From the NCBI GenBank assembly GCA_011043375.1, contig DQYP01000172.1:1-39086 (forward strand): 39,086 nt of DNA. The letters are read 5' to 3'. The DNA comes from Thermotogaceae bacterium (GTDB taxonomy: Bacteria > Thermotogota > Thermotogae > B21-G9 > HyVt-16). Position 1 is the first letter of the stretch. Every line of letters starts with the position of its first letter. Positions 3,201 through 33,584 of the stretch are shown here, one piece after another. The notes under the pieces are model-generated. The model searched no databases. It was not told the DNA's origin and saw only the letters and a list, made by a program, of their open reading frames with translations. The position numbers and the translations under genes are program-made.

Positions 3201-4835
3201 GAAGATACAAGTAAGACTATTGAGGAGTTTTCTATTGACAGGTTAAGAAATTTGTTTAGAGAGTGGACTAAAGCCGAAAGAGGTGCGCCTTTACCACCTC
3301 CAAGAACTGGTTACACACCCGCTGGTATCATCTTACCTTCTGTTGAAGAATACAACGAATTGGTAAAGACGTTGTTAAAATATAGCGATATACTTTCTAA
3401 AGTAATTGCAAACGAAAACGAGCGTTTAGTTATTTCTGCGAAATTAGCAGTTGACAAAAACATTGAGACTTTAAAGGAACTGGCTGAGTTGTTAAAACAA
3501 AGCGCAACCAGCGGAAAGGATGCGGTAAGCGCCTTTAATAGAATTGCTGATGCTCTGCAGTTAAGTGCCAAAGCTCAACCCATTGCAGAAGATCTGGCAC
3601 GTTATTTTGACTTCAAAGGATTATATGAAAGCATGCAGATGTTTGCACCTGTTTCTGCAAAAATGGTAGATGTTAATAAATTGATGACTATGAGTCTCTC
3701 GGACTTCGTTGATGTGTTGCTGGAGACAACTTATGAGACAGGCAAGGTTGATAGCAGCGTGTTGAAGCTTTACAACGACTTTGTGGACTATAGAAATATT
3801 CTAGGTGATGTTATAGACGAAGAGAAGGAAAGATTAGTGACGGTTACAAAATGGAGTCAGCACCTGAAAGAGTTTGGGAAAGCAGGAAAGAATATGGCAA
3901 ATACACTTTACAATTGGACGAAAGACTCTAAAGAGTTACAAGCGGTAGTTGAAACCAATTTGACGGATTTTGATAAATTCAAAACCCTATTGGGCGGGGT
4001 AGCTGGGCTGTTTAGACCAGAAATGCTCGCGGTAGCGGCTGGAGGGGTTGGCATTCCAATAGCTGCGGGCTTAGGTGGCGCTTTAGGTATTGAAGCCGCA
4101 AAAGGCAACATAGGAGGGGTGCAGAGTTTCATAGGCGCAATTGGAGATGCTCTGATGGGTTTGATGGTTTCACTTATCCAGGTATTTGGGCCGTTAATAA
4201 TGCAATTAGAAAATGTGCAAGCGGTATTGTTCCCATTCCAGACGATTTTGCAGGCTATATGGGATGTATTGGGGCCGGTAATAAACCAGGCATTTGCTCC
4301 TTTGGCGACGATGTTAAAAATCATTGGAACGGTTATTGGTAATTTGCTATTGCCTGTTTTGCAGCCGTTACTAAGCGTATTTCAATTATTAGCAAACGTA
4401 ATGGCCATGGCATATAATATGATGTTGCCCGGGATTAGAATACTGTACATCTTAGCGTCGATGGTGGGAAATGTATTCAAAATGATTTATAACGCCTTTG
4501 CGAGTTTCTTTAACTGGTTGGCAGATCAGATAAATAATCTTCTAGGGTGGGCAGGAATTCATATTGGTCACATGAAGCTCAAGAAAGTCAAATCCTTAGA
4601 CGAAATAATGAAAGAGGCTGAACAGAAATTCAAACCGATTTCCGCAGAAGGATTAACTGGAATAGCGATGCAAACACAAGCTCAGTATACAGCAAATGTT
4701 TCTAGAACTGGTCCCGAAACTGTGAATATCTACTTCCAGAATTCTATAATATACGGCAACGAAGAGGTGTTCAAAGAACAGGTGCTTAAATGGGTGAAAG
4801 AATGGGTTAGTGAAGGAGTAGTTGGGATTGGATGA
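228..4835 (+). CDS. tail tape measure protein (TP901-type core)
   Basis: 1535-aa ORF with TTG start at 228 preceded by GAGGTG (215-220). The region around aa 140-380 (ALASTMTE..IGSAGI..FAALTKMGL..) resembles the TP901-family tape-measure core as I recall it. It has a long helical middle and Gly-rich/hydrophobic C-terminal segments. Confidence 0.9.
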   Translation: MAVVSQEVNINIVAQDRASAILQQVKMQLEDLQRAAQSASIGFGNMTTATSRVSSRLQTVQRTFRTLGTTLRTVGDAAKTLGNAFIATPLYAFSRSVSYLNQQLLNMQRSFITLQYATEGFLRTMMMGLVGVAGGVFGLAANYQRSADAIALASTMTEVRLEKVRDMAFEVATTVGKPVEEVANAIYMIGSAGIRSQAEIERALKATAAAAVAGGSDMQQTFQTAIGMVNAFKDMGYTLQDVYAKMFKAMKQGLLTFEDMATYFGVITPAANQLGASLDEALGAFAALTKMGLLPARAATATQMAFQDIFEKADKLKELGINIYDAQGRFRGLYSVIKDLADKMAGMTDEGKRAVLETIGFEVRATRAIINWINRVDELKAMIEDVGSASAEAAEDEEDAFVKAGQSVAMTFRRIQQEIQRIIDSLMPTFNHILLRTLPIIQNLGKWAEKNLEGIFDNLLNIGKALLPIVIPLKVASVFAGDLFQMFYTLIHIINPFNIVMGGMLFALYQYLSENKEILDDLIDKAREVIDKIKVSFIEPIITAARKGDFVKVFDIIIGGLAELIGKAIVKVAEYLKEHGKEIWKAFTGAAGEIGGGVVEAVLEVTGFKPSEDMKGDDAFVKKLKEALGVAVITGVTTGRLGLAVKIASLFWLNDVKKGDLKMTERLKIAFGDMLATAILSEGKPIPFAAILTFKSVKDTLENGWSLRDVIRNVIIAAFVGAGLGLATKSPQIGALAFSVTLYIISEFFPGDPMKRVKELKERLAEISSRVFEKGIPAPETAMVYKQQVMRELGSIATLLGNVDLSKVKNIQYFSESLKQFNDTFATLSKNVDRLSVAEFQSLVNQLLKLLQQMITAYEFPAKLEEMGKENWFTNFLGWLNELYKRTGSPATQPFNPLYTGGGHQAGGYTADIGVNKIAGVVHGGEWVAPAWMVKHPLYGALIAWLEQKRIRGFQGGGSDKPITTRPLDIEGTIKRAFELGKVLSSLGNVFEDTSKTIEEFSIDRLRNLFREWTKAERGAPLPPPRTGYTPAGIILPSVEEYNELVKTLLKYSDILSKVIANENERLVISAKLAVDKNIETLKELAELLKQSATSGKDAVSAFNRIADALQLSAKAQPIAEDLARYFDFKGLYESMQMFAPVSAKMVDVNKLMTMSLSDFVDVLLETTYETGKVDSSVLKLYNDFVDYRNILGDVIDEEKERLVTVTKWSQHLKEFGKAGKNMANTLYNWTKDSKELQAVVETNLTDFDKFKTLLGGVAGLFRPEMLAVAAGGVGIPIAAGLGGALGIEAAKGNIGGVQSFIGAIGDALMGLMVSLIQVFGPLIMQLENVQAVLFPFQTILQAIWDVLGPVINQAFAPLATMLKIIGTVIGNLLLPVLQPLLSVFQLLANVMAMAYNMMLPGIRILYILASMVGNVFKMIYNAFASFFNWLADQINNLLGWAGIHIGHMKLKKVKSLDEIMKEAEQKFKPISAEGLTGIAMQTQAQYTANVSRTGPETVNIYFQNSIIYGNEEVFKEQVLKWVKEWVSEGVVGIG

Positions 4836-4849
4836 GGAGGGGAGAATGA

Positions 4850-7800
4850 ATGTTTCCTAAGTTAAATATTCCTGAGGAGTATATACCTTATTTACGACAC
4901 CCCTCTCGTAATAAGAAGGTAATAGTTTATGCTAAAATCGACGGAACGAATTGGTATGATATTTCTTCTTATGTGAAAAAGGTTACCATAGTTAATCGAT
5001 TAGAATTTTTGCAGGATCCTGCTTTGGATTCTGCTACTATCACACTTGCAAATCTCAATAACGAGTGGACTCCGACTCAATATAATGACGTTTTCGATCC
5101 AGCCAATGGAAAATTTAACGGCACTGTTGATCAAGCTTATTTATCAAAAGAGTGGGAAGTAAAAATTCTATTGAGAGTTTATAAAGATCCTACTACTTAT
5201 GTTGAAGTTCCACTTTTTTATGGTGTGAAAACAGAGTTGACAGAAAAACACAAAACAGCCGAAATAACTCTCAAAGATATATTGTATTATGCCACCAAGA
5301 AAAAGTTAGAAACTGATATATTATACCAAGCTATGACACCCAGCGAAATACTGAGCGATTTGCTCCAACGTGCTGGCTACTCAACTTCGCAATTTGATTT
5401 TCAGGGGTTTACCTCTGATGCTTATAAGTGTGTATTCTTAGCAAAGAGAGACAAAACTTATTGGCAGAACATCATTAATTTAGTAAAAGGTAGCGCAGGA
5501 AAGATTTCAACTAAGCCTGACGGCACTATTATTTTCAGAACACGAAATAGTGATACTTATGAAGATCCTGACGTGGCAGCCGATCTCGCTCAAGATGAGT
5601 TCAAAAAATATGACCTTACGACCACGAAGCGTTATAACAAAATAGTTGTTGATAGTGAAAGCTATAGCATAGATCAAGATTTATCTAATGTTGTGGATGT
5701 CGAGCTGGGCGAAGATAGTGTTATAGAGCCAAATTCTAGTGCTAATTTTGAAGCCGATTATGTTTCTGATTATGCAAAAGACGTTTCTGATACAGTTGAA
5801 ATTAAATACAAAATCAGCAATTTGGAATATACCGCAACGCTTCAAGAGGGCGAAGATGATGGCACAATAAAACTTGAAAGTTATCAGCGTTTTGCTGACA
5901 AAATAGTGTGTACTATCAAAAACCTCTCTTCCTCTGAACAGGTTACCATTACACATTTGAAAACGCAGGGACGTCAGATTAAGCGCATTGCTATAAATAA
6001 AGTCATTCGTCAGGCTACAGAAACACCTGAGAAGGAATATAAAGTTGTTTCATTCTTTGAGAGCGAAGGCATTTTGAAAACTATAGCAGATATTTATTTT
6101 GATGAAGTTGGAAAGAGTATTGGGTTTGTTCTTGATATGAATCAATTTTATGGTGATATTTATGCAGGAAACTTGGTCAATTTTTCTGTGCCAGCAAAAG
6201 GCATTTCTTCTGGAAAATTCTTAGTTTTAAAAGTTGAACACACTCTTGAAGGCGGGTTGTTTAGGACTACACTCGGAATCTTAGAGTGGAGTGGTTTGCA
6301 ATTTCAACAGGGTGACCACATAGCTACTCGTAGCTATCAAGCTCCACCACCATCTGTTGACCAAATTCAACAGAGCTTAAGTGAGGTTCAAAGCCAAGTT
6401 GATGAGTTAGACCAGCGTGTTTCTCAGCAGGAGGAAAAAACTCAATTTTTAGATGGTCAAGCTCCCCCTCAACCAGATTTTCAATTGACATCGTTTAGGA
6501 ATGCACAAGGCGAAAGCATTGTGGAAGCCTCGTGGGACGAAGTGAATGCAACTGATATTATAGGATATGAACTTCAATGGGATACAAATTATAATTTTTA
6601 TCATCCGCGAACTTTAAGGACTAGTGATACAACCATTAGTTGGGCAGTGCCAGGAAATACAACGATTTATGTGCGCATGCGTACCTTGGATGCTGAAGGT
6701 AAAAAGTCGGCTTGGACAGATTGGCATTCAATTATTTCGGCGAAAGATAACGTCCCGCCTTCTAAACCACAAGGAGTAAACGCTGTTGGGTTGTTTCAAA
6801 CCATTATGGTGCAATGGAACGAAAACACAGAAGAGGATCTCAGTCATTATGTGCTGGAATATGACACTGACGAAAACTTTTCTAATCCTACTCGTATAAC
6901 ACTTGCAGCGAACCACACTGTTATAAAAGAATTGAATGTTAATACTACTTATTATATTAGAGTGGCTGCAGTGGATACTTCAGGCAATCAATCAGAGTGG
7001 TCGGATGTGGTTAGCGCGTCTACAGCAAAAATTGATGACGAGAACTATTATGATTATGCCGCTATCAAAAACTGCATTATGCACAACGGCTATATAGACA
7101 GCGCTTGGATTTCTGAATTGGATGCTGGATTGATCACTACTGGATATCTTAGTGCTGATAGGATTGAAGCTGGCACTATTACTTTTGAAAAGTTGGCTTT
7201 TAGAAGTGCTTTTTCCGTTCCTGAGGGTGCTATTGCATATTGGACTAACTCGCTCGTTGACGAATTATATGGAATAACTCCAAAGGGTTATACAGAAGCT
7301 AATTTGCATCCATCTATTACATTGTTGCCCGAAAACGCGCCAGAAGGGAGTGTCGTTGCGGATCTCCTCGCAGCGGATAAGGTGTATGGAAATCATATAG
7401 CGGCAAATACGATCACTGCGGATAAATTAGACGTTTCAGAACTATCAGCCATAACAGCCAATGCAGGAACAATCACCGCAGGAATCATCAAGGGTAGTAG
7501 CGAAACAACGAAATTTGATCTTAATCAGGATCAGCTCATTGTGGGATCCGGAATAGTAAAGATAGGAAAAGGAGTATTGCCAGACGGCGGAGACGGCATT
7601 TTGCTTAATGGCTCAAATCTACATGTAGAGGGTGAGATAGATACAGATTATTTAGACCTTCATAAAGCGGCTATAATTTCTCTAGATGAATACAAAACCT
7701 TCTTTTCTCACACTAACCAAACAAAGTATTTCTCGAGTGCTGGTGACTTGTGTGTGGATCATTATACGCTATATGTTCTCAGGCCTATAACTATTACAAC

Positions 7801-25775: not shown

Positions 25776-25804
25776 TTTATACACCACGCATTATAAAAAG
25801 TCAA
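25776..25804 (-). promoter_or_regulatory. sigma70-type promoter of the RHH-like gene
   Basis: The minus strand reads TTGACT, a 17-nt spacer ending in GTGGTG, then TATAAA. Confidence 0.5.
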
Positions 25805-26066
25805 GTAACAGAAATGTTAACATCATGCTATTTATATGTTATCAACCTTTAATCACATTTAACACCCTCTATTATCCCTTATATCATGCTATCCCATCTC
25901 ATATCTTATAGTCATTTAACATTTCTCATATCATATAAATCTGAGTTTATTCTATCTAACACTCATATTAGATTCCCTAATCCCATTTTATTCTCTATAA
26001 TACTTTATCCCATCTTGTATCATTAGCCCTCTTATATCTATATCGATATATCTATATCGTTATATC

Positions 26067-26119
26067 TATCTAATGTCAAGTATGCTTTACATCTTTATTA
26101 TATCTAACATGTCAAGTAT
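26067..26119 (+). repeat. two copies of TATCTAA(T/CA)TGTCAAGTAT
   Basis: Copies at 26067-26083 and 26101-26119. Confidence 0.7.
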
Positions 26120-26152
26120 ATTTGACACTATAACTGTCATACTTCTATATAA

Positions 26153-26230
26153 CAGTTAGACAGTTAGAGAAAAGCAGGTATTGTAAAAGCAGGTATTGTA
26201 GACGATATATATAATATATATATCATCGTC
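26153..26230 (+). repeat. tandem CAGTTAGA x2, tandem AAAGCAGGTATTGTA x2, then a 30-bp AT palindrome
   Basis: CAGTTAGA lies at 26153-26160 and 26161-26168. AAAGCAGGTATTGTA lies at 26171-26185 and 26186-26200. GACGATATATATAATATATATATCATCGTC lies at 26201-26230. Confidence 0.8.
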
Positions 26231-26386
26231 AATATATCCTCTTATCTCCCATTATAGGCCCTCTTATTCCAGAGTCCTCTCATATCGGGGACTTATACTC
26301 TCATATATTCATACGTATACTATTATATATCGTGTCGTAAAAGAGATATTTTACGACATTATAGCTTATATCTCATTACTTTTAGG

Positions 26387-26443
26387 TTATCTTATCTAAC
26401 GTATTAGTTATCTTATCTAACATGTTAGTTTATCTTATCTAAC
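26387..26443 (+). repeat. three tandem iterons TTATCTTATCTAAC spaced 21 and 22 bp apart
   Basis: Exact 14-mers at 26387-26400, 26408-26421 and 26430-26443. The TATCTAAC core also occurs at 25953 and 26101. Confidence 0.85.
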
Positions 26444-26553
26444 ATTATACCTCATTAAATGTTAGTTACTATAAAAGATGTTTTTTACGCTATTACCCCT
26501 ATACCCTTATTTTACGTAGAGAATGAGAGGGAATGGGGGTATACTAAAAAAAT

Positions 26554-26692
26554 TACATTTAAAAATTAAAACTTTTAAGAATTAGAATTCTAATATAGTT
26601 ACCATTATCATAAGAAAAACGGAGATATAGCATCAGAAGATTTATAGTTTGCATGTTATACGATACAGAAAAAATACATTTAAAAATTAAAA
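26554..26692 (+). repeat. 18-nt direct repeat TACATTTAAAAATTAAAA
   Basis: Copies at 26554-26571 and 26675-26692, each preceded by an A-run. Confidence 0.75.
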
Positions 26693-26885
26693 TTTCATTA
26701 TAGTTATAACTACGAGAAGAGTACTATAGTATAACATCAGGGAATTTATGAATTCTATATTACACAGTTCATGATATAGAAAGCTGATATAGTAAAGTTG
26801 CTGTTATATAAGAGATATAACTGGCGTATAGAGAAAGGGATAATATGAGAGGCTCCTGTTATAGTTATAAGGCTCTATATAATTA

Positions 26886-26925
26886 TTCGGGTTTTTCTTA
26901 AATATTTCGGGTTTATTTCGGGTTT
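26886..26925 (+). repeat. three copies of TTCGGGTTT
   Basis: Copies start at 26886, 26906 and 26917. Confidence 0.7.
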
Positions 26926-26936
26926 ATATAATAAAA

Positions 26937-26958
26937 CAGCCCTCTTATAAGAGGGCTG
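26937..26958 (-). terminator. rho-independent terminator ending the long leftward operon
   Basis: Perfect palindrome CAGCCCTCTTATAAGAGGGCTG. On the minus strand it is followed by TTTTATT. Confidence 0.75.
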
Positions 26959-26976
26959 GGATATGAAATTATTTAT

Positions 26977-27462
26977 TTATAAACTTATAATTTGATTAGC
27001 TTCATCTATTAGTTTTCTTATCAAAAAGGGTTCTTTATTTGGTTTGAGGGATTTGATACTTTCAAATATTTCCTCCTCAGAAGAGCCAAATTCTCTCTTC
27101 ATAAAAAGAGCAGTCGTGATAATAGAAAGTTCACTAGTCGAAAATCTTCCATAATGTTTAACGATATCGAGAATTTCTTTATCTTCTTTTTCGGGGGGCT
27201 CTATTTCAGGAGAGAGGGGAATTAACTTGAGAAATTTATCATAGTATTCTTCGATCCAATTTAAAGATTTTGCGGTGTTTATAAACCAGTTCACTCTAAT
27301 CGATTTTGGCCCAAAATGATATAAGCTGTAATCCAGATCGATTCCAGAGATTGTTTCGTAGATATACATGAGATACATAAGCTTCTTAACAGAAATTTCT
27401 TTTAATTCTTTTACCAAGTAGTATACTATTTTAGCTCCTCTAAAGTCTGAAAATTTATTCAT
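26977..27462 (-). CDS. Panacea/DUF4065 (GepA/SocA-like) domain protein; possible antitoxin
   Basis: RBS AAAGGAGGA. The N-terminal half ..VKKLMYLMYIYETISGIDLDYSLYHFGPKSIRV.. matches the KLxKLLY...GP(V) pattern of the family as I recall it. Confidence 0.45.
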   Translation of the reverse strand: MNKFSDFRGAKIVYYLVKELKEISVKKLMYLMYIYETISGIDLDYSLYHFGPKSIRVNWFINTAKSLNWIEEYYDKFLKLIPLSPEIEPPEKEDKEILDIVKHYGRFSTSELSIITTALFMKREFGSSEEEIFESIKSLKPNKEPFLIRKLIDEANQIISL

Positions 27463-27531
27463 AGTTATTCCTCCTTTTAAAAAATGGGGTCATATTGAAC
27501 AAGCCATACCATTTCTCCTTCAGGGTAAACA

Positions 27532-27915
27532 CTATGTTATATCAAACCCCTGAAACACAAACTCTTTTTCGAATGTTAAACTTTCTTTTATCTTTTCTCT
27601 TTTATATCCTATTAAGGCGTTTTTTACGACTTCAGCGAGGTTTTGTAAGAACTCATCCAGAGAAAATCTTTCTATCTCTTCTTTGGTTTCTGGGTGCATT
27701 TCAAATCCGATTTTCAAATCATATCCATCATCTGGGTCATAAGACCAGTGATATGACCGGAAGCTGTGCTGGATTTCTCTTTTCACATACTCTCTCGCAT
27801 CCTCATCATACCCTCCAGGGAAACGAATGTTTGTAAAGATATAAATATCACCCTTCCATTCTCCAGAAAGATATTTCCACTCTCTGTAAAAAGAACCCTT
27901 TACTCTTATTTCCAT
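27532..27915 (-). CDS. hypothetical 127-aa protein (candidate partner or toxin of the Panacea-like gene)
   Basis: RBS AAAGGAGGGGAG. No recognisable motif. Confidence 0.6.
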   Translation of the reverse strand: MEIRVKGSFYREWKYLSGEWKGDIYIFTNIRFPGGYDEDAREYVKREIQHSFRSYHWSYDPDDGYDLKIGFEMHPETKEEIERFSLDEFLQNLAEVVKNALIGYKREKIKESLTFEKEFVFQGFDIT

Positions 27916-27998
27916 AGTCTCCCCTCCTTTTTATAAATGTCTTCATCCATCAAACGAGAGTTGTTTGTATAAACGTGTTTTAGAGCTCCTAGTTTCAT
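27906..27998 (-). CDS. 30-codon ORF
   Basis: ATG lies 5 nt after GAGGAGGTG. The 3' end overlaps the start of the 127-aa gene. Not in the supplied track because it is under 60 aa. Confidence 0.35.
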   Translation of the reverse strand: MKLGALKHVYTNNSRLMDEDIYKKEGRLWK

Positions 27999-28015
27999 AC
28001 TTACACCTCCTCAGT

Positions 28016-28180
28016 TCATTCTCTAAAGAATTTGCTCTGTATTGCTTTCAATTCTGCAACCATTATTATTAATTTATCTATTTCTTTGAAAGCCTCGAAA
28101 ACAAAGCTGTGTTCTAAGAGGCTTTCGATGTGAGAAATTTTATCCCGTATTTCCTCAAGGGCGCGATAAAGTTCATCCAT
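28016..28180 (-). CDS. 54-codon helical ORF immediately downstream of tnpB
   Basis: ATG 28180 lies 6 nt after GGGAGGTGA, which overlaps the tnpB stop. Translation is MDELYRALEEIRDKISHIESLLEH... The region could alternatively be omega RNA / IS right-end sequence. Confidence 0.35.
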   Translation of the reverse strand: MDELYRALEEIRDKISHIESLLEHSFVFEAFKEIDKLIIMVAELKAIQSKFFRE

Positions 28181-28185
28181 TTCAA

Positions 28186-29520
28186 TCACCTCCCAAACTT
28201 TTTATACCATATTTCTTGAGAATTGTCAAGATACTTTTCAATCCTTCTTAAAAGGTCAGCTACTCTCCCCCCTAAAGAAGGAGAGCTTGCTCTACCGGTT
28301 TGACCGGGAGCATTAGGCTGGCTGACAAGCAGCCCCTTTAGATTCTCTTCTTGGGTTTTTGAAAGCTCACGAAGTGCGATATTGATCGCTCCAACTATAT
28401 CTGCATGCTCTTTGTAACCACAGTTCTGACAAACAAATCTTTCTCCATGGTTGGGTCTGTTGTTTTTTGAAACGTACCCGCACACAGGACATGTTTGAGA
28501 GGTATAGCTTGGATCTACATATACAGCTTGAACTCCGTAGTATAAAGCTGCTTTGTATTCGATCTTCTTCTGGAGCGATGCAAAAGGCCATTGCTCAGCT
28601 TGCCGTCTTGCTTCTTTATCTTTGCCGCGATACGTAACGCGGTTGGAGCGAATCTGAGTCAGGTCTTCCAAGACAAACCTAGCCTGAGGATGGGATTCAA
28701 CCAGGGTTTTTGAAACGATGTGTAGCACGTTCTCGGTAAACCGTTTTTCCCGCCTGCTAAGCTTCTGGAGTTTTCGCTTAGCAGAGCGGGTGCCTTTGGA
28801 CATTAGCTCAGAGCGCAGGTTGTGATAACGTTGTTTTCTGCGTTTGACTTCCTCAGGCAGATTGACAAGATATTTCTTTCCGGTTGTTGAAGCAACAGCC
28901 ATGATATGTCTTTCGCCAACATCGACTCCGACGATTTCTTTGGGACGCCGCTCTTGAATTTCAAGAGTTACAGGAACCAAGAGAAAGAATGTCTTAGAAG
29001 AGCGATCATAACTGAGGATAGGATCACCGATTTTCCCTTGTCGCAGGTACTCATAATGCTTATTCCAACCGTAGATTCGTATCCACTTTAGACGGCCTTG
29101 CAGAGTTGAAATGGAAACGTAGATTTCGTTCCAGTTGGCAAATTTGAAAGATACAGTTCTGTTGTACGTGTATTTGGCGATTAGAGACTTTCGCTTTGGA
29201 GGCTTATCCCAAAATTTCTTAGTAGCTTTCGAATCTGGCTTTCTGCGTTTCAACTCTTTGAACTGAGCCCAAAGGGTTTTGTAGATCGCAGCGGCGTCTC
29301 TGTTAACGTTCACAGCAAGTTGAGCAGGAAGACCAAATCGCTCTCTGATAGTCACATAATATGCATGGTGTAGTTTCTTCACATTAGTGGTCTTATCAGA
29401 CAGGTTTTTAGACAGCACAAAGTTTACGGCTTCTGTATACGCTTCAGCCGTCTCAAACAATTGCCTCTTTTGCTCTTTTGTGGCGTCAAACTTGAATTTA
29501 AGCATAAGCACCTGTTTCAT
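28186..29520 (-). CDS. tnpB: TnpB (IS200/IS605-family OrfB, RuvC-like RNA-guided nuclease)
   Basis: Typical N-terminus MLKFKFDATKEQKRQL. RuvC triad candidates are GVDVGE, FVLEDL and HADIVGAINIA. Zinc ribbon CPVCG..CQNCG. The tracked ORF starts at TTG 29526 and ATG 29520 is preferred. Confidence 0.85.
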   Translation of the reverse strand: MKQVLMLKFKFDATKEQKRQLFETAEAYTEAVNFVLSKNLSDKTTNVKKLHHAYYVTIRERFGLPAQLAVNVNRDAAAIYKTLWAQFKELKRRKPDSKATKKFWDKPPKRKSLIAKYTYNRTVSFKFANWNEIYVSISTLQGRLKWIRIYGWNKHYEYLRQGKIGDPILSYDRSSKTFFLLVPVTLEIQERRPKEIVGVDVGERHIMAVASTTGKKYLVNLPEEVKRRKQRYHNLRSELMSKGTRSAKRKLQKLSRREKRFTENVLHIVSKTLVESHPQARFVLEDLTQIRSNRVTYRGKDKEARRQAEQWPFASLQKKIEYKAALYYGVQAVYVDPSYTSQTCPVCGYVSKNNRPNHGERFVCQNCGYKEHADIVGAINIALRELSKTQEENLKGLLVSQPNAPGQTGRASSPSLGGRVADLLRRIEKYLDNSQEIWYKKFGR

Positions 29521-29522
29521 CT

Positions 29523-29792
29523 TCAATCACCACTATATGAGATTATATTCCAGATAAAGAGATAGCCCCAGTATCCTGTATATAGTGCTTTTAGGTAAGA
29601 GAAAACTGGAAAATTAAATATCATTTGCAGTCCTATTACGCCGAATGGAACTACTATGAATGTTATAAAAAGATCTTGTGCTATTATTGACCATATTGGT
29701 GTTTTTAAAATAGCATATTTCATAACCTGCAGAGTTATAATCATGCGCAGCGCTAATACTACCCAGAAAGCTATCCAGAGAACTATCATCAT
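29523..29792 (-). CDS. small integral membrane protein (about 3 TM)
   Basis: RBS GAGGAGGTGA. Hydrophobic throughout. The stop overlaps the tnpB start region. Confidence 0.6.
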   Translation of the reverse strand: MMIVLWIAFWVVLALRMIITLQVMKYAILKTPIWSIIAQDLFITFIVVPFGVIGLQMIFNFPVFSYLKALYTGYWGYLFIWNIISYSGD

Positions 29793-31413: not shown

Positions 31414-31447
31414 TGGTAGAATTCTGGTAGAATTACTTGGTAGAATT
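31414..31447. repeat. three tandem copies of TGGTAGAATT at the XRE-gene/methylase junction
   Basis: Copies start at 31414, 31425 and 31438. Confidence 0.75.
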
Positions 31448-32008
31448 TTCAAACAGCTTATCCAGCTCTTCTTTTAGCTCAGGTGGAAGTTGAACACAGC
31501 GAAAACTATCCGTTTGAAGTTCTTTGCCATCAAAATAAGCCTCTATAAACTGTTGCGTGGGATCATATTCTTGGGCCTTAGATTGGTCTATAAGAACTTT
31601 GCCATGGTATTTGTCTTTTAGCAACGCTTCTATGGTGGGTTTCATTTCGTAAGCAAAGTAATGAGTTTTGATTTTGATAACTTTCAGACCTTTATAGTCT
31701 TTAATATCGACGAATTCTGGATAATATTTCTGCTCAAATTCCAGTCTAGGTTGCAAACCCAATTTGCTAAATATTTTTGCAATTTCGCTTATTTTAAGGT
31801 CGTATTCGCCTTCTTCAATTGCTTGGTAGGTTTTCAAATCAATTTCAAGATATTTTGCCATATCTTCTTGCGTGAGATCATATCTTTTTCTATAAGCCAT
31901 CAATTGCCCGCCTATTTGTGCTTTAAGAGAGATGAGGTATTCGTATTCTAAAGACAATTTTGCTCCAAGATCACGCATAAGTTCGAAGACGTTTGAATAA
32001 ACCTTCAT
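31433..32008 (-). CDS. XRE-family helix-turn-helix protein with C-terminal extension
   Basis: The HTH_3-like segment is YRKRYDLTQEDMAKYLEIDLKTYQAIEEGE..ISEIAKIFSKLG. Confidence 0.7.
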   Translation of the reverse strand: MKVYSNVFELMRDLGAKLSLEYEYLISLKAQIGGQLMAYRKRYDLTQEDMAKYLEIDLKTYQAIEEGEYDLKISEIAKIFSKLGLQPRLEFEQKYYPEFVDIKDYKGLKVIKIKTHYFAYEMKPTIEALLKDKYHGKVLIDQSKAQEYDPTQQFIEAYFDGKELQTDSFRCVQLPPELKEELDKLFENSTK

Positions 32009-32018
32009 AATTTCACCC

Positions 32019-32303
32019 CTATTCTATCCAACCGTCATAAATCCAAATTTCCCCTTCTGGTGTGATTATGATTGGGTTATCCACCTCTCTGATCAGTTCT
32101 AACAAATCCTCTAACGTGTTTATTGTAATGAAATATTTGTTTTTCTCGAAGGGGTAATATGGTTTTCGAGAGGCTTTCTTTTCGATTTGAAACTTTTTAA
32201 GTTTCTCAAAATAAATCTCTTCCATTGCATTTTCTGCTTCAGGGAACGTGAAACCAGGCCCAGGAGCGTGTTTATCGTGTGCTGATAATATTTGGAACTT
32301 CAT
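32019..32303 (-). CDS. hypothetical protein
   Basis: ATGA overlap with the upstream gene. Confidence 0.6.
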   Translation of the reverse strand: MKFQILSAHDKHAPGPGFTFPEAENAMEEIYFEKLKKFQIEKKASRKPYYPFEKNKYFITINTLEDLLELIREVDNPIIITPEGEIWIYDGWIE

Positions 32304-32614
32304 TTTTCTTCCTCCCTTCTTTCAAGAATCTCATTAAATAATTCCCTTGCTGAAACCTTGTTTTCTGCCCATTTACCAGCCATTTCCCAATAGTATGGCC
32401 CCAGTAAATAAACTGTTTCCGTATCTGTTATTACCATACCGAAATCTTTCGCTATATAGTATCCATGGCACTCATAAACTTCACCCTTAAGCTGCACAGG
32501 CTTATCGGCTTTATACATTAGGCAAACTTTTATTCTGTCTGGTAATTCGTCAAAGAATCTTGATACTACTTCAGGTATCTCAAGCACATCAACCCACTTC
32601 TCACCTATTTTCAT
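32300..32614 (-). CDS. hypothetical protein
   Basis: ATG 32614 lies 8 nt after GGGAGGGG. The tracked start at 32644 lies inside the upstream gene. Confidence 0.55.
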   Translation of the reverse strand: MKIGEKWVDVLEIPEVVSRFFDELPDRIKVCLMYKADKPVQLKGEVYECHGYYIAKDFGMVITDTETVYLLGPYYWEMAGKWAENKVSARELFNEILERREEEK

Positions 32615-32630
32615 TTTCTTTACCCCTCCC

Positions 32631-33182
32631 TTATTCTGTCTCATCTATACTTTTTAAAAGCTGTTCTGCGGCTTTTGTGTACGGTTTGTAATACCGTAAC
32701 GCTTTAGCAAGCTCGTTCACATCGACTATGATATATGAACCAGAATCTTTGTCATAGCAAACTCTTACATAGAAAGTCTTTGGCCAGAATGGGTATTTAA
32801 CTTTTTGACGACTTGTTATACCATTCACTTCTCCTGTAAAAGCAGTTCCAGATTCATCAACCCAAACTATGGCGTTGTTATAATAAACCGTATCTCCATC
32901 TTTAAAGAGAGCTGAACAGCGTCTGCTTTGATATTTGTTTTCGCCAATTTTCTCCCATTCTTCTTCACCTTGATAAATAGGGGCCAGAGGCATCTTCAAG
33001 AGGCGATTTTCAACCAACTTGGCTATTTTTGGTGCAAACCAGTGCGCAGTGAAACCAGAATGAAGCTGTTTATCAAAAATTGCTTTCATTCTTTCAATAA
33101 CTCCGATAAAGTCTTCATACACTTTCCACTCGTCTTCAGAAACATGCTTTTTAAGATATTCCCATTCCGTCACACCCAACAC
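32631..33182 (-). CDS. hypothetical protein (start TTG 33182 or GTG 33173)
   Basis: RBS GGGAGG immediately upstream. Confidence 0.55.
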   Translation of the reverse strand: MLGVTEWEYLKKHVSEDEWKVYEDFIGVIERMKAIFDKQLHSGFTAHWFAPKIAKLVENRLLKMPLAPIYQGEEEWEKIGENKYQSRRCSALFKDGDTVYYNNAIVWVDESGTAFTGEVNGITSRQKVKYPFWPKTFYVRVCYDKDSGSYIIVDVNELAKALRYYKPYTKAAEQLLKSIDETE

Positions 33183-33504: not shown

Positions 33505-33584
33505 TGGCAGGGGCGGTGGGATTCGAACCCACGTTAGCCTTCGGGGTAGAAACCCGATGCTCGATCCAGCTGAGCTACGCCCCT
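33505..33584 (-). tRNA. tRNA-Arg (anticodon UCU) with encoded CCA and an unusually long 8-nt variable loop
   Basis: Manual fold on the minus strand: acceptor AGGGGCG/CGCCCCT, D arm GCTC-AGCTGGATC-GAGC, anticodon arm TCGGG-TTTCTAC-CCCGA, variable AGGCTAAC, T arm GTGGG-TTCGAAT-CCCAC, discriminator G, CCA. Confidence 0.8.

What the first reader, a model, noticed from the sequence alone, without database searches (positions are those of the whole stretch)
26977..27998. Terminal two-to-three gene module: unknown 127-aa protein plus Panacea/DUF4065-like protein, a candidate novel toxin-antitoxin or defence cassette
The last gene before a strong terminator (26977..27462) carries what looks like a Panacea (DUF4065, GepA/SocA) domain.
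- Published work on PanA antitoxins shows this domain pairs promiscuously with many unrelated toxins.
- Immediately upstream are a 127-aa protein with no motif I can recognise (27532..27915) and a 30-codon ORF (27906..27998). Both have excellent Shine-Dalgarno sites.
- The module sits at the distal end of an early operon, next to a TnpB gene and the ori-like region. That is a typical moron or accessory position.
- The 127-aa protein would therefore be a candidate for an undescribed toxin or effector family.
Basis: inference. Interest (0 to 1): 0.65.

Follow-up and report, generated by a model that had tools for sequence, protein, structure and literature searches.

The report
Orphan Panacea-like antitoxin gene in phage
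The last gene of this phage operon does encode a very divergent relative of a known toxin-neutralising protein domain (Panacea / DarG tail), but the 127-residue protein beside it became its neighbour only through a recent deletion, so this is a lone antitoxin-type gene, not a new toxin-antitoxin cassette.

Summary
The ORFs, Shine-Dalgarno sites, terminator, TnpB gene and AT-rich repeat region are all present as described.

**The 161-aa protein** has no direct Pfam DUF4065 hit, even at E<=1. It is still a divergent Panacea-type protein:
- A full HMMER search with its profile found 86 relatives. Of the 75 aligned, 47 hit PF13274 on their own.
- PADLOC matches it to the DarG C-terminal domain.
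- Its AlphaFold model's only real PDB match is that same domain (7YK3, TM 0.61).

**The proposed pairing with the 127-aa protein fails the synteny test:**
- In a 93%-identical relative (L001), three genes lie between the two.
- The gene abutting the Panacea-like gene there is an 86-aa gene. A 61%-identical relative (L002) keeps its 92-aa homologue in the same position.
- The window's arrangement is a deletion. The 161-aa gene now uses the ribosome-binding site and start codon of a deleted gene.
- Other relatives follow a small membrane protein, a 105-aa protein, a DruA-like protein or, most often, a dGTPase-like HD protein.

**The 127-aa protein** is a real, constrained gene (dN/dS 0.05). It is acidic, specific to this lineage, has a paralogue, and has no recognisable fold or family.

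**Best reading:** an orphan antitoxin-type binder in a variable accessory region that also carries anti-defence-like genes. It may be a counter-defence factor or a leftover antitoxin.

The parts
26977..27462 (-). 161-aa stand-alone Panacea-like / DarG-C-terminal-domain-like protein (antitoxin-type toxin-binding fold). It is the last gene of the operon.
   Evidence: ORF. No direct Pfam hit. PADLOC DarG positions 175-322 of 329 at E=1.2e-4 and PDC-M19A at 1.8e-4. 86 relatives found by full HMMER search; of the 75 aligned, 47 hit PF13274. 9 of the 10 closest relatives have PF13274 as their top hit, and P0011 scores 30 bits against a cut-off of 25.7. AlphaFold2 pLDDT 80. Foldseek top hit is 7yk3_D, the DarG chain of the DarTG complex, with TM 0.61 and probability 1.0. 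dN/dS 0.02 against L001.
26937..26958 (-). Intrinsic-terminator-like hairpin plus T-run that ends the operon.
   Evidence: 9-bp stem with 6 G-C pairs, 4-nt loop, then TTTTATTATA. Sequence shown.
27450..27531 (-). Intergenic spacer plus deletion junction. The spacer, the Shine-Dalgarno site and ATGAA match the 5' end of an 80-aa gene in L001 and are fused to codon 3 of the Panacea-like gene.
   Evidence: The blastn segment boundaries overlap at window 27458-27476. Sequences side by side: window MNK-FSDF, against L001 80-aa gene MNG... and L001 160-aa gene MQ-FSDF.
27532..27915 (-). 127-aa acidic soluble protein of unknown function, specific to this lineage. It is not a conserved partner of the 161-aa protein.
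   Evidence: No hit in Pfam, PHROGs, PADLOC or NCBIfam. Only two homologues in 5.8 billion proteins: P0003 (96%) and the L001 paralogue P0004 (40%). AlphaFold2 pLDDT 78.6, an alpha/beta sandwich. No Foldseek match with TM above 0.47 in PDB or BFVD. pI 5.0, net charge -7, no transmembrane segment. dN/dS 0.05.
27906..27998 (-). 30-codon ORF with a good Shine-Dalgarno site. Coding status is doubtful; it is probably junction or remnant sequence.
   Evidence: Only its last ~25 nt are shared with L001, where a different 80-aa ORF (L001 5053-5295) ends with the same residues KEGRLWK. Window 27936-28016 has no counterpart in L001.
28016..28189 (-). 57-aa small acidic protein, conserved in L001 and L003. 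It is the first gene after the TnpB insertion.
   Evidence: 87.5% identity to L001 3925-4095. dN/dS 0.16.
28186..29536 (-). tnpB gene (ORF 28186..29526) on a ~1.28-kb insertion (about 28255..29536) that L001 lacks. The insertion has higher G+C than its flanks and replaces the last codons of the membrane-protein gene.
   Evidence: Pfam hits. Insertion boundaries. G+C 0.43-0.47 against about 0.33-0.36 in the flanks. 34-41% identity to TnpB genes on Deinococcus plasmids over residues 1-424.
29523..29792 (-). 89-aa small membrane protein. Its homologue lies immediately upstream of the Panacea-like gene in the 46%-identical relative L005/L006.
   Evidence: 40.6% identity to the L005 89-aa protein, E=5e-17. 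Hydrophobic segments.
31433..33182 (-). Context, same operon: an HTH_3 protein with an RnlB-antitoxin-like C-terminus (31433..32008) and a Tad3-like Thoeris-inhibitor homologue (32631..33182).
   Evidence: HTH_3 at 2.7e-8; RnlB_antitoxin at 1.9e-5 with 25.4 bits, just under the cut-off of 27. PF25185 Tad3 at 8.1e-14 with 51.9 bits, above the cut-off of 27.

Best explanation
The window comes from a tailed phage. The final gene of a long leftward operon encodes a stand-alone, highly divergent member of the Panacea (DUF4065) / DarG-C-terminal-domain superfamily. The documented job of this fold is to bind and neutralise a partner toxin directly, as a type II-like antitoxin.

In this phage the gene is an orphan. 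In close relatives it is translationally coupled to an 86-92-aa upstream gene. In the window a deletion removed that gene and two others. The deletion happened at micro-homology between ribosome-binding-site and start regions, and it left the Panacea-like gene beside the unrelated 127-aa gene.

The 127-aa protein is one of several interchangeable small accessory genes in a variable region. That region lies between a conserved small membrane-protein gene and the Panacea-like gene. The 127-aa protein is not the toxin.

The retained Panacea-like protein most likely still acts as a protein binder and inhibitor. It is either a leftover antitoxin whose toxin was lost (losing a toxin is harmless, so this is an expected outcome) or a counter-defence factor that neutralises a host toxin.

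Shown here: homology, fold, deletion junction, lack of synteny, purifying selection. Inferred: binding and neutralising activity, and its target.
For: **Homology and fold of the 161-aa protein**
- PADLOC DarG C-terminal half at E=1.2e-4.
- A profile of the protein and two close homologues finds 86 proteins at E<=1e-3, most of 160-190 aa.
- Of the 75 aligned, 47 hit PF13274 SocA_Panacea on their own, best E=3.7e-8.
- 9 of the 10 closest relatives have PF13274 as their top Pfam hit.
- The 75-sequence profile hits DarG chain 7yk3_B at E=1.1e-4 through the shared QKLMY...YGPxS motif.
- The AlphaFold2 model (pLDDT 80) matches only 7yk3_D well: TM 0.61, with every other hit at TM 0.32 or below.
- PMC13621843 states that DUF4065 proteins are homologous to the DarG C-terminal inhibitor domain.
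- G51-P52 aligns with the functionally important GPV motif of Panacea.

**Orphan status and deletion**
- In L001, the 127-aa gene (5286-5669) and the 160-aa gene (6607-7089) are separated by genes of 80, 124 and 86 aa. The 86-aa gene ends 2 nt before the 160-aa gene.
- L002, 61% identical, has the 92-aa homologue of the 86-aa protein (64% identity) in the same abutting position.
- The junction sequence is chimeric.
- No remnant of the 86/92-aa gene remains in the window.

**Partner diversity in relatives, always upstream and tightly spaced**
- An 89-aa membrane protein in L005/L006, a 105-aa protein in L007-9, a DruA-like protein in L015, and a dGTPase-like HD protein in five lineages.

**Constraint**
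- dN/dS is 0.02 against L001.
- Within the orphan lineage there are 4 non-synonymous and 5 synonymous changes, still below the neutral ratio of about 4 to 1.

**Context and precedent**
- The same operon carries a Tad3-like gene, an HTH/RnlB-like gene and a DNA methyltransferase.
- Phages are known to use orphan antitoxins as counter-defence (PMC11825919).
Against: - The protein itself does not reach any Pfam threshold. Most relatives score below the PF13274 gathering cut-off, so family membership rests on transitive and structural evidence.
- No activity was or could be tested.
- About half of known DUF4065 proteins are not in TA-like loci, and their function is unknown (PMC8832971). An antitoxin-type action is therefore not guaranteed.
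- In L001 the 127-aa and Panacea-like genes are still in the same operon. A non-adjacent functional link cannot be formally excluded.
- The 4 non-synonymous to 5 synonymous changes in the orphan lineage, against 0 to 7 on the other branch, may hint at relaxed selection. That would suit a decaying remnant rather than an active factor. The numbers are too small to decide.
- The host and any host toxin are unknown.
Confidence: 0.6

Rival explanations
1. The 127-aa protein is a new toxin or effector, the 161-aa Panacea-like protein is its cognate antitoxin, and together (with or without the 30-codon ORF) they form a TA or defence cassette.
For: - The two genes are adjacent, co-directional and 69 nt apart, within the 100-nt limit used for PanAT loci.
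- Panacea antitoxins swap partners readily, and toxin-upstream arrangements exist.
- The 127-aa protein has no known family or fold.
- Both genes are under purifying selection.
Against: - The adjacency is limited to 99%-identical copies and was created by a deletion.
- In L001 both neighbours of the 127-aa gene differ from those in the window, and its paralogue also sits away from any Panacea-like gene.
- No relative of the 161-aa protein has a homologue of the 127-aa protein nearby.
- The 69-nt gap is the widest upstream-partner gap in this set where such a partner exists. Elsewhere the spacing ranges from a 17-nt overlap to a 15-nt gap.
- The 127-aa protein is soluble and acidic with no enzymatic motif.
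Confidence: 0.08
2. The cognate partner in this phage is the conserved 89-aa membrane protein (29523..29792), acting as a small membrane toxin like several validated PanT toxins. The pair has been pulled apart by cargo genes and the TnpB element inserted between them.
For: - In L005/L006, whose Panacea-like protein is 46% identical, the homologous membrane-protein gene ends 8 nt before the Panacea-like gene.
- The membrane protein is retained upstream, on the same strand, in the window and in L001.
- Membrane-targeting small proteins are a major class of validated PanT toxins (PMC8832971).
Against: - In L001 and L002 the abutting partner is the soluble 86/92-aa protein instead.
- L007-9 have no homologue of the membrane protein.
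- The membrane protein and the Panacea-like protein may simply both be core genes of related phages with conserved gene order. The methyltransferase and the next gene are also syntenic.
- In the window the insertion has changed the membrane protein's C-terminus.
Confidence: 0.12
3. The 161-aa protein is not an antitoxin-type inhibitor at all. It is one of the many Panacea/GepA-like phage proteins outside TA loci, with some other role such as a regulator or structural adaptor, and the neighbouring genes are irrelevant.
For: - About half of DUF4065 proteins are not in TA-like loci.
- P0009 stands alone in a cellular context.
- The weaker Foldseek hits are to winged-helix regulators such as SloR, MntR, PadR and MarR, at TM 0.2-0.3.
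- The gene persists without its usual partner.
Against: - Every experimentally characterised member of the superfamily (PanA proteins, SocA, DarG C-terminal domain) acts on a partner toxin.
- Most relatives examined have a tightly coupled upstream gene, and 5 of 8 distant lineages have the same HD partner.
Confidence: 0.15

Closest known systems
PanA antitoxins (Panacea domain, DUF4065, Pfam PF13274; Kurata et al. 2022, PMC8832971)
   Same: - Size of about 160-175 aa.
- A helical fold with a conserved central helix followed by a G-P motif.
- A stand-alone domain encoded tightly next to highly variable partner genes, and also found in phages.
- Relatives retrieved by its profile hit PF13274.
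   Different: - The window protein has no PF13274 hit even at E<=1.
- The motif is G-P-K/Y-S, as in DarG, rather than G-P-V.
- In this subfamily the partner lies upstream in every case seen, which is the less common arrangement for PanAT loci.
- In the window no conserved partner is present at all.
C-terminal DarT-inhibiting domain of DarG (PDB 7YK3; Deep et al. 2023, as cited in PMC13621843)
   Same: - It is the best and only convincing structural match (TM 0.61).
- It is the best PADLOC match.
- It is the best solved-structure sequence match once the broad 75-sequence profile is used, through the shared QKLMY...YGPYS segment.
   Different: - The window protein has no macrodomain or NADAR hydrolase domain.
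- No DarT gene lies nearby.
- Sequence identity is about 12%.
Phage-encoded orphan antitoxins used as counter-defence (for example AdfN/NADAR against DarTG1, PMC11825919; T4 Dmd against RnlA, from general knowledge)
   Same: - A phage gene homologous to an antitoxin, with no cognate toxin beside it.
- It sits in an accessory region with other anti-defence-like genes (Tad3-like, RnlB-like).
   Different: - Those examples have demonstrated activity. Here the target and the activity are only inferred.
- No Panacea-type counter-defence factor turned up in the literature searched.
SocA of the SocAB system (Panacea-containing adaptor that delivers the toxin SocB to ClpXP; cited in PMC8832971)
   Same: It belongs to the same domain superfamily and acts on a partner toxin.
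   Different: SocA works as a proteolytic adaptor. Nothing here bears on that mechanism, and there is no SocB homologue.

Membership tests
Panacea / DUF4065 (Pfam PF13274 SocA_Panacea) | The protein itself matches the Pfam model at or above the gathering score (25.7 bits). | tested here: not met
   no Pfam family at E<=1 for the 161-aa protein. P0002 (61% identical) also has no PF13274 hit.
Panacea / DUF4065 (Pfam PF13274 SocA_Panacea) | Significant sequence homology to proteins that do match the family (transitive membership). | tested here: met
   profile hits reach E=1e-15 for P0011, which scores 30.0 bits on PF13274, above the cut-off. Of 75 retrieved relatives, 47 hit PF13274 at E<=0.01. 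PF13274 is the top Pfam hit for 9 of the 10 closest relatives.
Panacea / DUF4065 (Pfam PF13274 SocA_Panacea) | Fold: a central conserved helix surrounded by further helices plus a small sheet, homologous to the DarG C-terminal domain. | tested here: met
   The AlphaFold2 model has 7 helices and short strands, pLDDT 80. Foldseek matches 7yk3_D with TM 0.61 and probability 1.0, with no other hit above TM 0.32. Fold description from PMC8832971. The DUF4065-DarG link is stated in PMC13621843.
Panacea / DUF4065 (Pfam PF13274 SocA_Panacea) | The conserved GPV motif after the central helix. | tested here: inconclusive
   G51 and P52 are at least 90% conserved across the 75 relatives. The third residue is K in the window and Y in most relatives and in DarG (YGPYS), not V.
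PanAT-type TA-like locus (criteria of Kurata et al. 2022), applied to the 127-aa / 161-aa pair | At most 100 nt between the two genes. | tested here: met
   69 nt, from 27463 to 27531.
PanAT-type TA-like locus (criteria of Kurata et al. 2022), applied to the 127-aa / 161-aa pair | [quoted passage not shown] | tested here: not met
   The adjacency is seen only in 99%-identical contigs. In L001 the genes are separated by 3 genes. All other relatives have different neighbours. tblastn finds the 127-aa family only in the window, L001, L003 and L004.
PanAT-type TA-like locus (criteria of Kurata et al. 2022), applied to the 127-aa / 161-aa pair | The neighbourhood does not suggest an operon longer than three genes. 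| tested here: not met
   The genes end a co-directional run of more than 25 ORFs on the minus strand, from about 39005 to 26977. The order is conserved with L001.
PanAT-type TA-like locus (criteria of Kurata et al. 2022), applied to the 127-aa / 161-aa pair | The toxin is toxic when expressed alone, and the Panacea protein neutralises and binds it. | not testable with these tools
   This needs expression and pull-down experiments.
DarTG toxin-antitoxin system | The antitoxin carries an ADP-ribosyl-glycohydrolase domain (macrodomain or NADAR), and a DarT toxin gene is adjacent. | tested here: not met
   The 161-aa protein corresponds only to DarG model positions 175-322. No macrodomain, NADAR or DarT hit was found in the protein or its neighbours.
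Phage orphan-antitoxin counter-defence factors | A phage-encoded antitoxin homologue with no cognate toxin gene. | tested here: met
   Phage context. The conserved 86/92-aa partner is absent, with no remnant.
Phage orphan-antitoxin counter-defence factors | It neutralises a host-encoded toxin or defence system during infection. | not testable with these tools
   The host is unknown. This needs phage-challenge or co-expression assays.

The most novel reading that the evidence does not exclude
The phage's orphan Panacea-like protein may be a counter-defence factor. Its cellular-type relatives (28-33% identical) are encoded immediately after a ~420-aa dGTPase-like HD protein in five separate lineages. 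That arrangement looks like a Panacea-controlled, dNTP-depleting toxin or defence module.

The phage copy could be a captured antitoxin that re-inhibits such a host toxin, or another Panacea-guarded host toxin, during infection. This would be the first Panacea-type anti-defence protein, and it would point to an HD-Panacea defence pair.

One HD pair (L010) and a contig nearly identical to the window (L003) come from the same metagenome sample, ERZ27248172.
Probability: 0.15. Interest if true: 0.65.

Novelty: new member of a known kind. Interest (0 to 1): 0.3.

Why it matters
- **A cautionary case.** A 'Panacea plus unknown neighbour' pair looks like a new toxin family but turns out to be a deletion scar. 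Adjacency in a single genome is weak evidence for a TA pair.
- **A gap in Pfam coverage.** This branch of the Panacea superfamily falls below current Pfam thresholds. It occurs in uncultivated low-G+C phages and in HD-protein gene pairs, so surveys based on PF13274 undercount the domain.
- **A possible new weapon.** If the orphan copy proves to neutralise a host toxin, the hyperpromiscuous Panacea fold would join the list of phage counter-defence tools. As it stands, the locus is a modest, mostly ordinary finding.

Tried and rejected
**Direct family scans**
- Pfam, PHROGs, PADLOC and NCBIfam scans of the 127-aa, 30-aa and 57-aa proteins, and of the 86-, 92-, 105- and 89-aa partner proteins, gave nothing significant.

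**Homologue searches**
- The word-indexed homologue search gave only 2 hits for the 161-aa protein and 1-2 for the 127-aa protein.
- Scans of viral, metagenome and genome contig collections, using profiles of both proteins, found no further loci.
- No DNA or protein match was found in GenBank phages.

**Structure-based searches**
- Foldseek with the 127-aa model found only weak matches, with TM at most 0.47. These were to T3SS-chaperone/YbjN-like and uncharacterised phage proteins, and I do not treat them as meaningful.
- Sequence searches of solved structures with the 127-aa and 86/92-aa profiles gave only chance-level hits: RPD3 and retinol-binding protein.

**Rejected leads**
- The 3-sequence profile hit the V-ATPase A subunit at E=3e-5. 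I rejected it as spurious because it disappears with the 75-sequence profile and has no structural support.
- Rfam found only a tRNA in the window.
- The host could not be identified. The TnpB is only about 40% identical to Deinococcus plasmid copies.
Full report
**What is in the sequence**

On the minus strand the window carries, in order:
- an 89-aa membrane-protein gene (29523..29792)
- a tnpB gene (28186..29526)
- a 57-aa gene (28016..28189)
- a 30-codon ORF (27906..27998)
- a 127-aa gene (27532..27915)
- a 161-aa gene (26977..27462)

Each of the last three has a strong Shine-Dalgarno site. A G+C-rich hairpin with a T-run follows the last stop codon at 26958..26937. Beyond it lies an AT-rich, ORF-poor stretch with iteron-like repeats.

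The window is a tailed phage. It encodes a tape-measure protein, a GemA-like protein, ThyX, an SLT lysozyme domain, an N6/N4 DNA methyltransferase and a tRNA-Arg. It has no DNA or protein match for these genes in GenBank phages.

**Is the 161-aa protein a Panacea protein?**

Not by the literal test. hmmscan against Pfam gives no family at E<=1. Weaker signals pointed the same way:
- the C-terminal half of the PADLOC DarG model (E=1.2e-4)
- PDC-M19A (E=1.8e-4)
- PHROG 14939 (E=0.005)

I built a profile from the protein and its only two indexed homologues, P0001 (98% identical) and P0002 (61%). An exhaustive HMMER search of 1.84 billion representative proteins with this profile gave 86 hits at E<=1e-3, nearly all of 160-190 aa.
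- Of the 75 I aligned, 47 match PF13274 SocA_Panacea on their own, and no other family recurs.
- PF13274 is the top Pfam hit for 9 of the 10 closest relatives. P0011 scores above the gathering cut-off.
- The 75-sequence profile hits the DarG chain of PDB 7YK3 (E=1.1e-4) through a QKLMY...YGPYS segment.

The AlphaFold2 model (pLDDT 80) has one convincing PDB match. This is 7yk3_D, the DarG chain of the M. tuberculosis DarTG complex, at TM 0.61. Everything else is at TM 0.32 or below. A 2026 paper states that DUF4065 proteins are homologous to this DarG C-terminal inhibitor domain (PMC13621843).

G51-P52 of the window protein align with the GPV motif, which Kurata et al. showed to be important for neutralisation (PMC8832971). 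Here the third residue is K or Y, as in DarG.

I conclude that the protein belongs to a divergent, under-annotated branch of the Panacea superfamily.

**Is the 127-aa protein its partner?**

The evidence says no. The 127-aa protein has only two homologues in 5.8 billion sequences:
- P0003 (96% identical), on contig L001
- P0004 (40% identical), a paralogue on the same contig

L001 is a 7.5-kb metagenomic contig, 93-94% identical to the window at the DNA level. There, the 127-aa gene (5286-5669) and the Panacea-like gene (6607-7089) are separated by three genes of 80, 124 (membrane) and 86 aa. The 86-aa gene ends 2 nt before the Panacea-like gene.

In L002, whose Panacea-like protein is 61% identical, a 92-aa homologue of that 86-aa protein (64% identical) occupies the same abutting position. 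A further gene follows. The L001 arrangement is therefore ancestral.

The junction in the window confirms a deletion:
- The 69-nt spacer, the Shine-Dalgarno site and ATGAA after the 127-aa gene match the 5' end of L001's 80-aa gene.
- From codon 3-4 onward the sequence is the Panacea-like gene. The window reads MNK-FSDF, against MQ-FSDF in L001.
- The two blastn segments overlap by 19 nt of micro-homology.

No trace of the 86/92-aa gene remains in the window. The 127/161 adjacency is seen only in two 99%-identical contigs, L003 and L004.

**Neighbours in wider relatives**

The gene immediately upstream of the Panacea-like gene varies by lineage:

| Lineage | Upstream gene |
|---|---|
| L005/L006 (46% identical) | 89-aa membrane protein, homologous to window ORF 29523..29792 (E=5e-17) |
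| L007-9 | unrelated 105-aa protein |
| L015 | DruA-like protein |
| Five lineages: P0007, P0008, P0011, P0012, P0014 | ~420-aa HD + HD_assoc_2 protein, typed as dGTPase-like |
| L019 (P0009) | no co-directional upstream gene (stand-alone) |

Where a co-directional upstream partner was found, it is tightly spaced, from a 17-nt overlap to a 15-nt gap. This fits the partner-swapping behaviour described for Panacea, with the toxin upstream. The window's 69-nt gap to a lineage-specific gene does not fit it.

Measured against Kurata's criteria for a TA-like locus, the 127/161 pair meets the distance rule only. It fails conservation across species and it fails the short-operon rule.

**What the 127-aa protein and the 30-codon ORF are**

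The 127-aa gene is real. dN/dS is 0.05 against L001. The protein is soluble and acidic (pI 5.0). The model is an alpha/beta sandwich with pLDDT 79. It has no meaningful structural or sequence relatives.

It is one of a set of small accessory genes in a variable segment bounded by the membrane-protein gene and the Panacea-like gene. That segment holds ten genes in L001 and four in the window. Its function cannot be assigned.

The 30-codon ORF shares only the ribosome-binding site and start region of the 127-aa gene with a different 80-aa ORF in L001. It has no independent support.

**Most likely mechanism**

- **Shown:** the 161-aa protein has the fold and ancestry of proteins that bind and neutralise a partner toxin. 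In this phage it has lost the gene it is normally coupled to. It remains constrained, with dN/dS 0.02 against L001. Within the orphan lineage there are 4 non-synonymous and 5 synonymous changes, a possible but non-significant sign of relaxation.
- **Inferred:** it is either a leftover antitoxin or a phage counter-defence factor. A leftover antitoxin is plausible because loss of a toxin is tolerated while loss of an antitoxin is not.
- **Support for the counter-defence idea, all circumstantial:**
  - the Tad3-like, HTH/RnlB-like and methyltransferase genes in the same operon
  - the precedent of phage orphan antitoxins (PMC11825919)
  - the existence of HD-Panacea pairs among its relatives, one of them from the same sample as a window-like contig

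**Verdict**

The central interpretation, a new toxin paired with Panacea, is not supported. The locus holds a new, divergent member of a known antitoxin superfamily in an orphan state, next to an unrelated accessory gene of unknown function. Interest is modest. The most novel reading still open is a Panacea-type phage counter-defence against HD-type toxins.

Noticed in passing
L010 729-2521, L013 1449-3226, L016 3-1749, L017 485-2401, L021 2-720 (related loci, not in the window): Distant relatives of the 161-aa protein (28-33% identical) are encoded immediately after a ~420-aa HD + HD_assoc_2, dGTPase-like protein, usually with a 4-nt overlap. This holds in five separate lineages, and the HD proteins are 38-58% identical to each other. 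It looks like a conserved HD-toxin / Panacea-antitoxin or defence pair. I did not establish whether the pair has been described before.
   Followed up: partly
window 32631-33182 (-): A 183-aa protein matches Pfam PF25185, the Tad3 type I Thoeris inhibitor (E=8e-14, 51.9 bits, above the cut-off). It is a likely anti-Thoeris gene in the same operon.
   Followed up: no
window 31433-32008 (-): A 191-aa protein has an N-terminal HTH_3 domain and a C-terminal region resembling the RnlB antitoxin (E=1.9e-5, 25.4 bits, just under the cut-off of 27). It may be a second antitoxin-like or regulator gene.
   Followed up: no
window 28186-29536 (-): The tnpB gene sits on a ~1.28-kb insertion (28255-29536) that L001 lacks. 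The insertion has higher G+C (0.43-0.47). It replaces the last codons of the 89-aa membrane-protein gene. The last 23 codons of the tnpB ORF lie in phage DNA shared with L001, and Deinococcus TnpB homologues align only to residues 1-424. The element may therefore be truncated at its 3' end. No tnpA gene is present.
   Followed up: partly
window 28201-28229 (-): A TTGACA-17 nt-TATAAA promoter-like site lies just upstream of the 57-aa gene and is conserved in L001. It could drive the variable gene block separately from the long operon.
   Followed up: no
L001 3700-6600 compared with window 27460-28260: The segment between the membrane-protein gene and the Panacea-like gene is a cassette-like variable region, with ten small genes in L001 and four in the window. 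The differences fall at short repeats in ribosome-binding-site and start regions, for example the MIEM... starts of the 68- and 56-aa genes. L001 also carries a 124-aa paralogue of the 127-aa protein (4397-4771).
   Followed up: partly
window 26977-27462 (protein residues 56-117): The 3-sequence profile of the 161-aa protein hits eukaryotic V-ATPase subunit A, residues 447-509, at E=3e-5 (VNW-I...EYYDK...PL). The hit vanishes with the 75-sequence profile and has no structural support, so it is probably chance.
   Followed up: yes
L007 946-1973: P0006 (251 aa) is a Panacea-like domain fused to a C-terminal extension. The extension is 43% identical to the product of the next gene downstream (91 aa), which suggests a local duplication and fusion.
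   Followed up: no
window 25800-26970: This AT-rich non-coding region (G+C 0.25-0.29) carries three copies of TTAGxTTATCTTATCTAAC spaced 21-22 nt apart (26382-26443), a perfect tandem 15-mer (26170-26199) and several palindromes. It lies between convergent terminators and is consistent with a replication origin.
   Followed up: partly
window 33505-33584 (-): A phage-encoded tRNA-Arg (anticodon TCT) lies inside the leftward operon.
   Followed up: no
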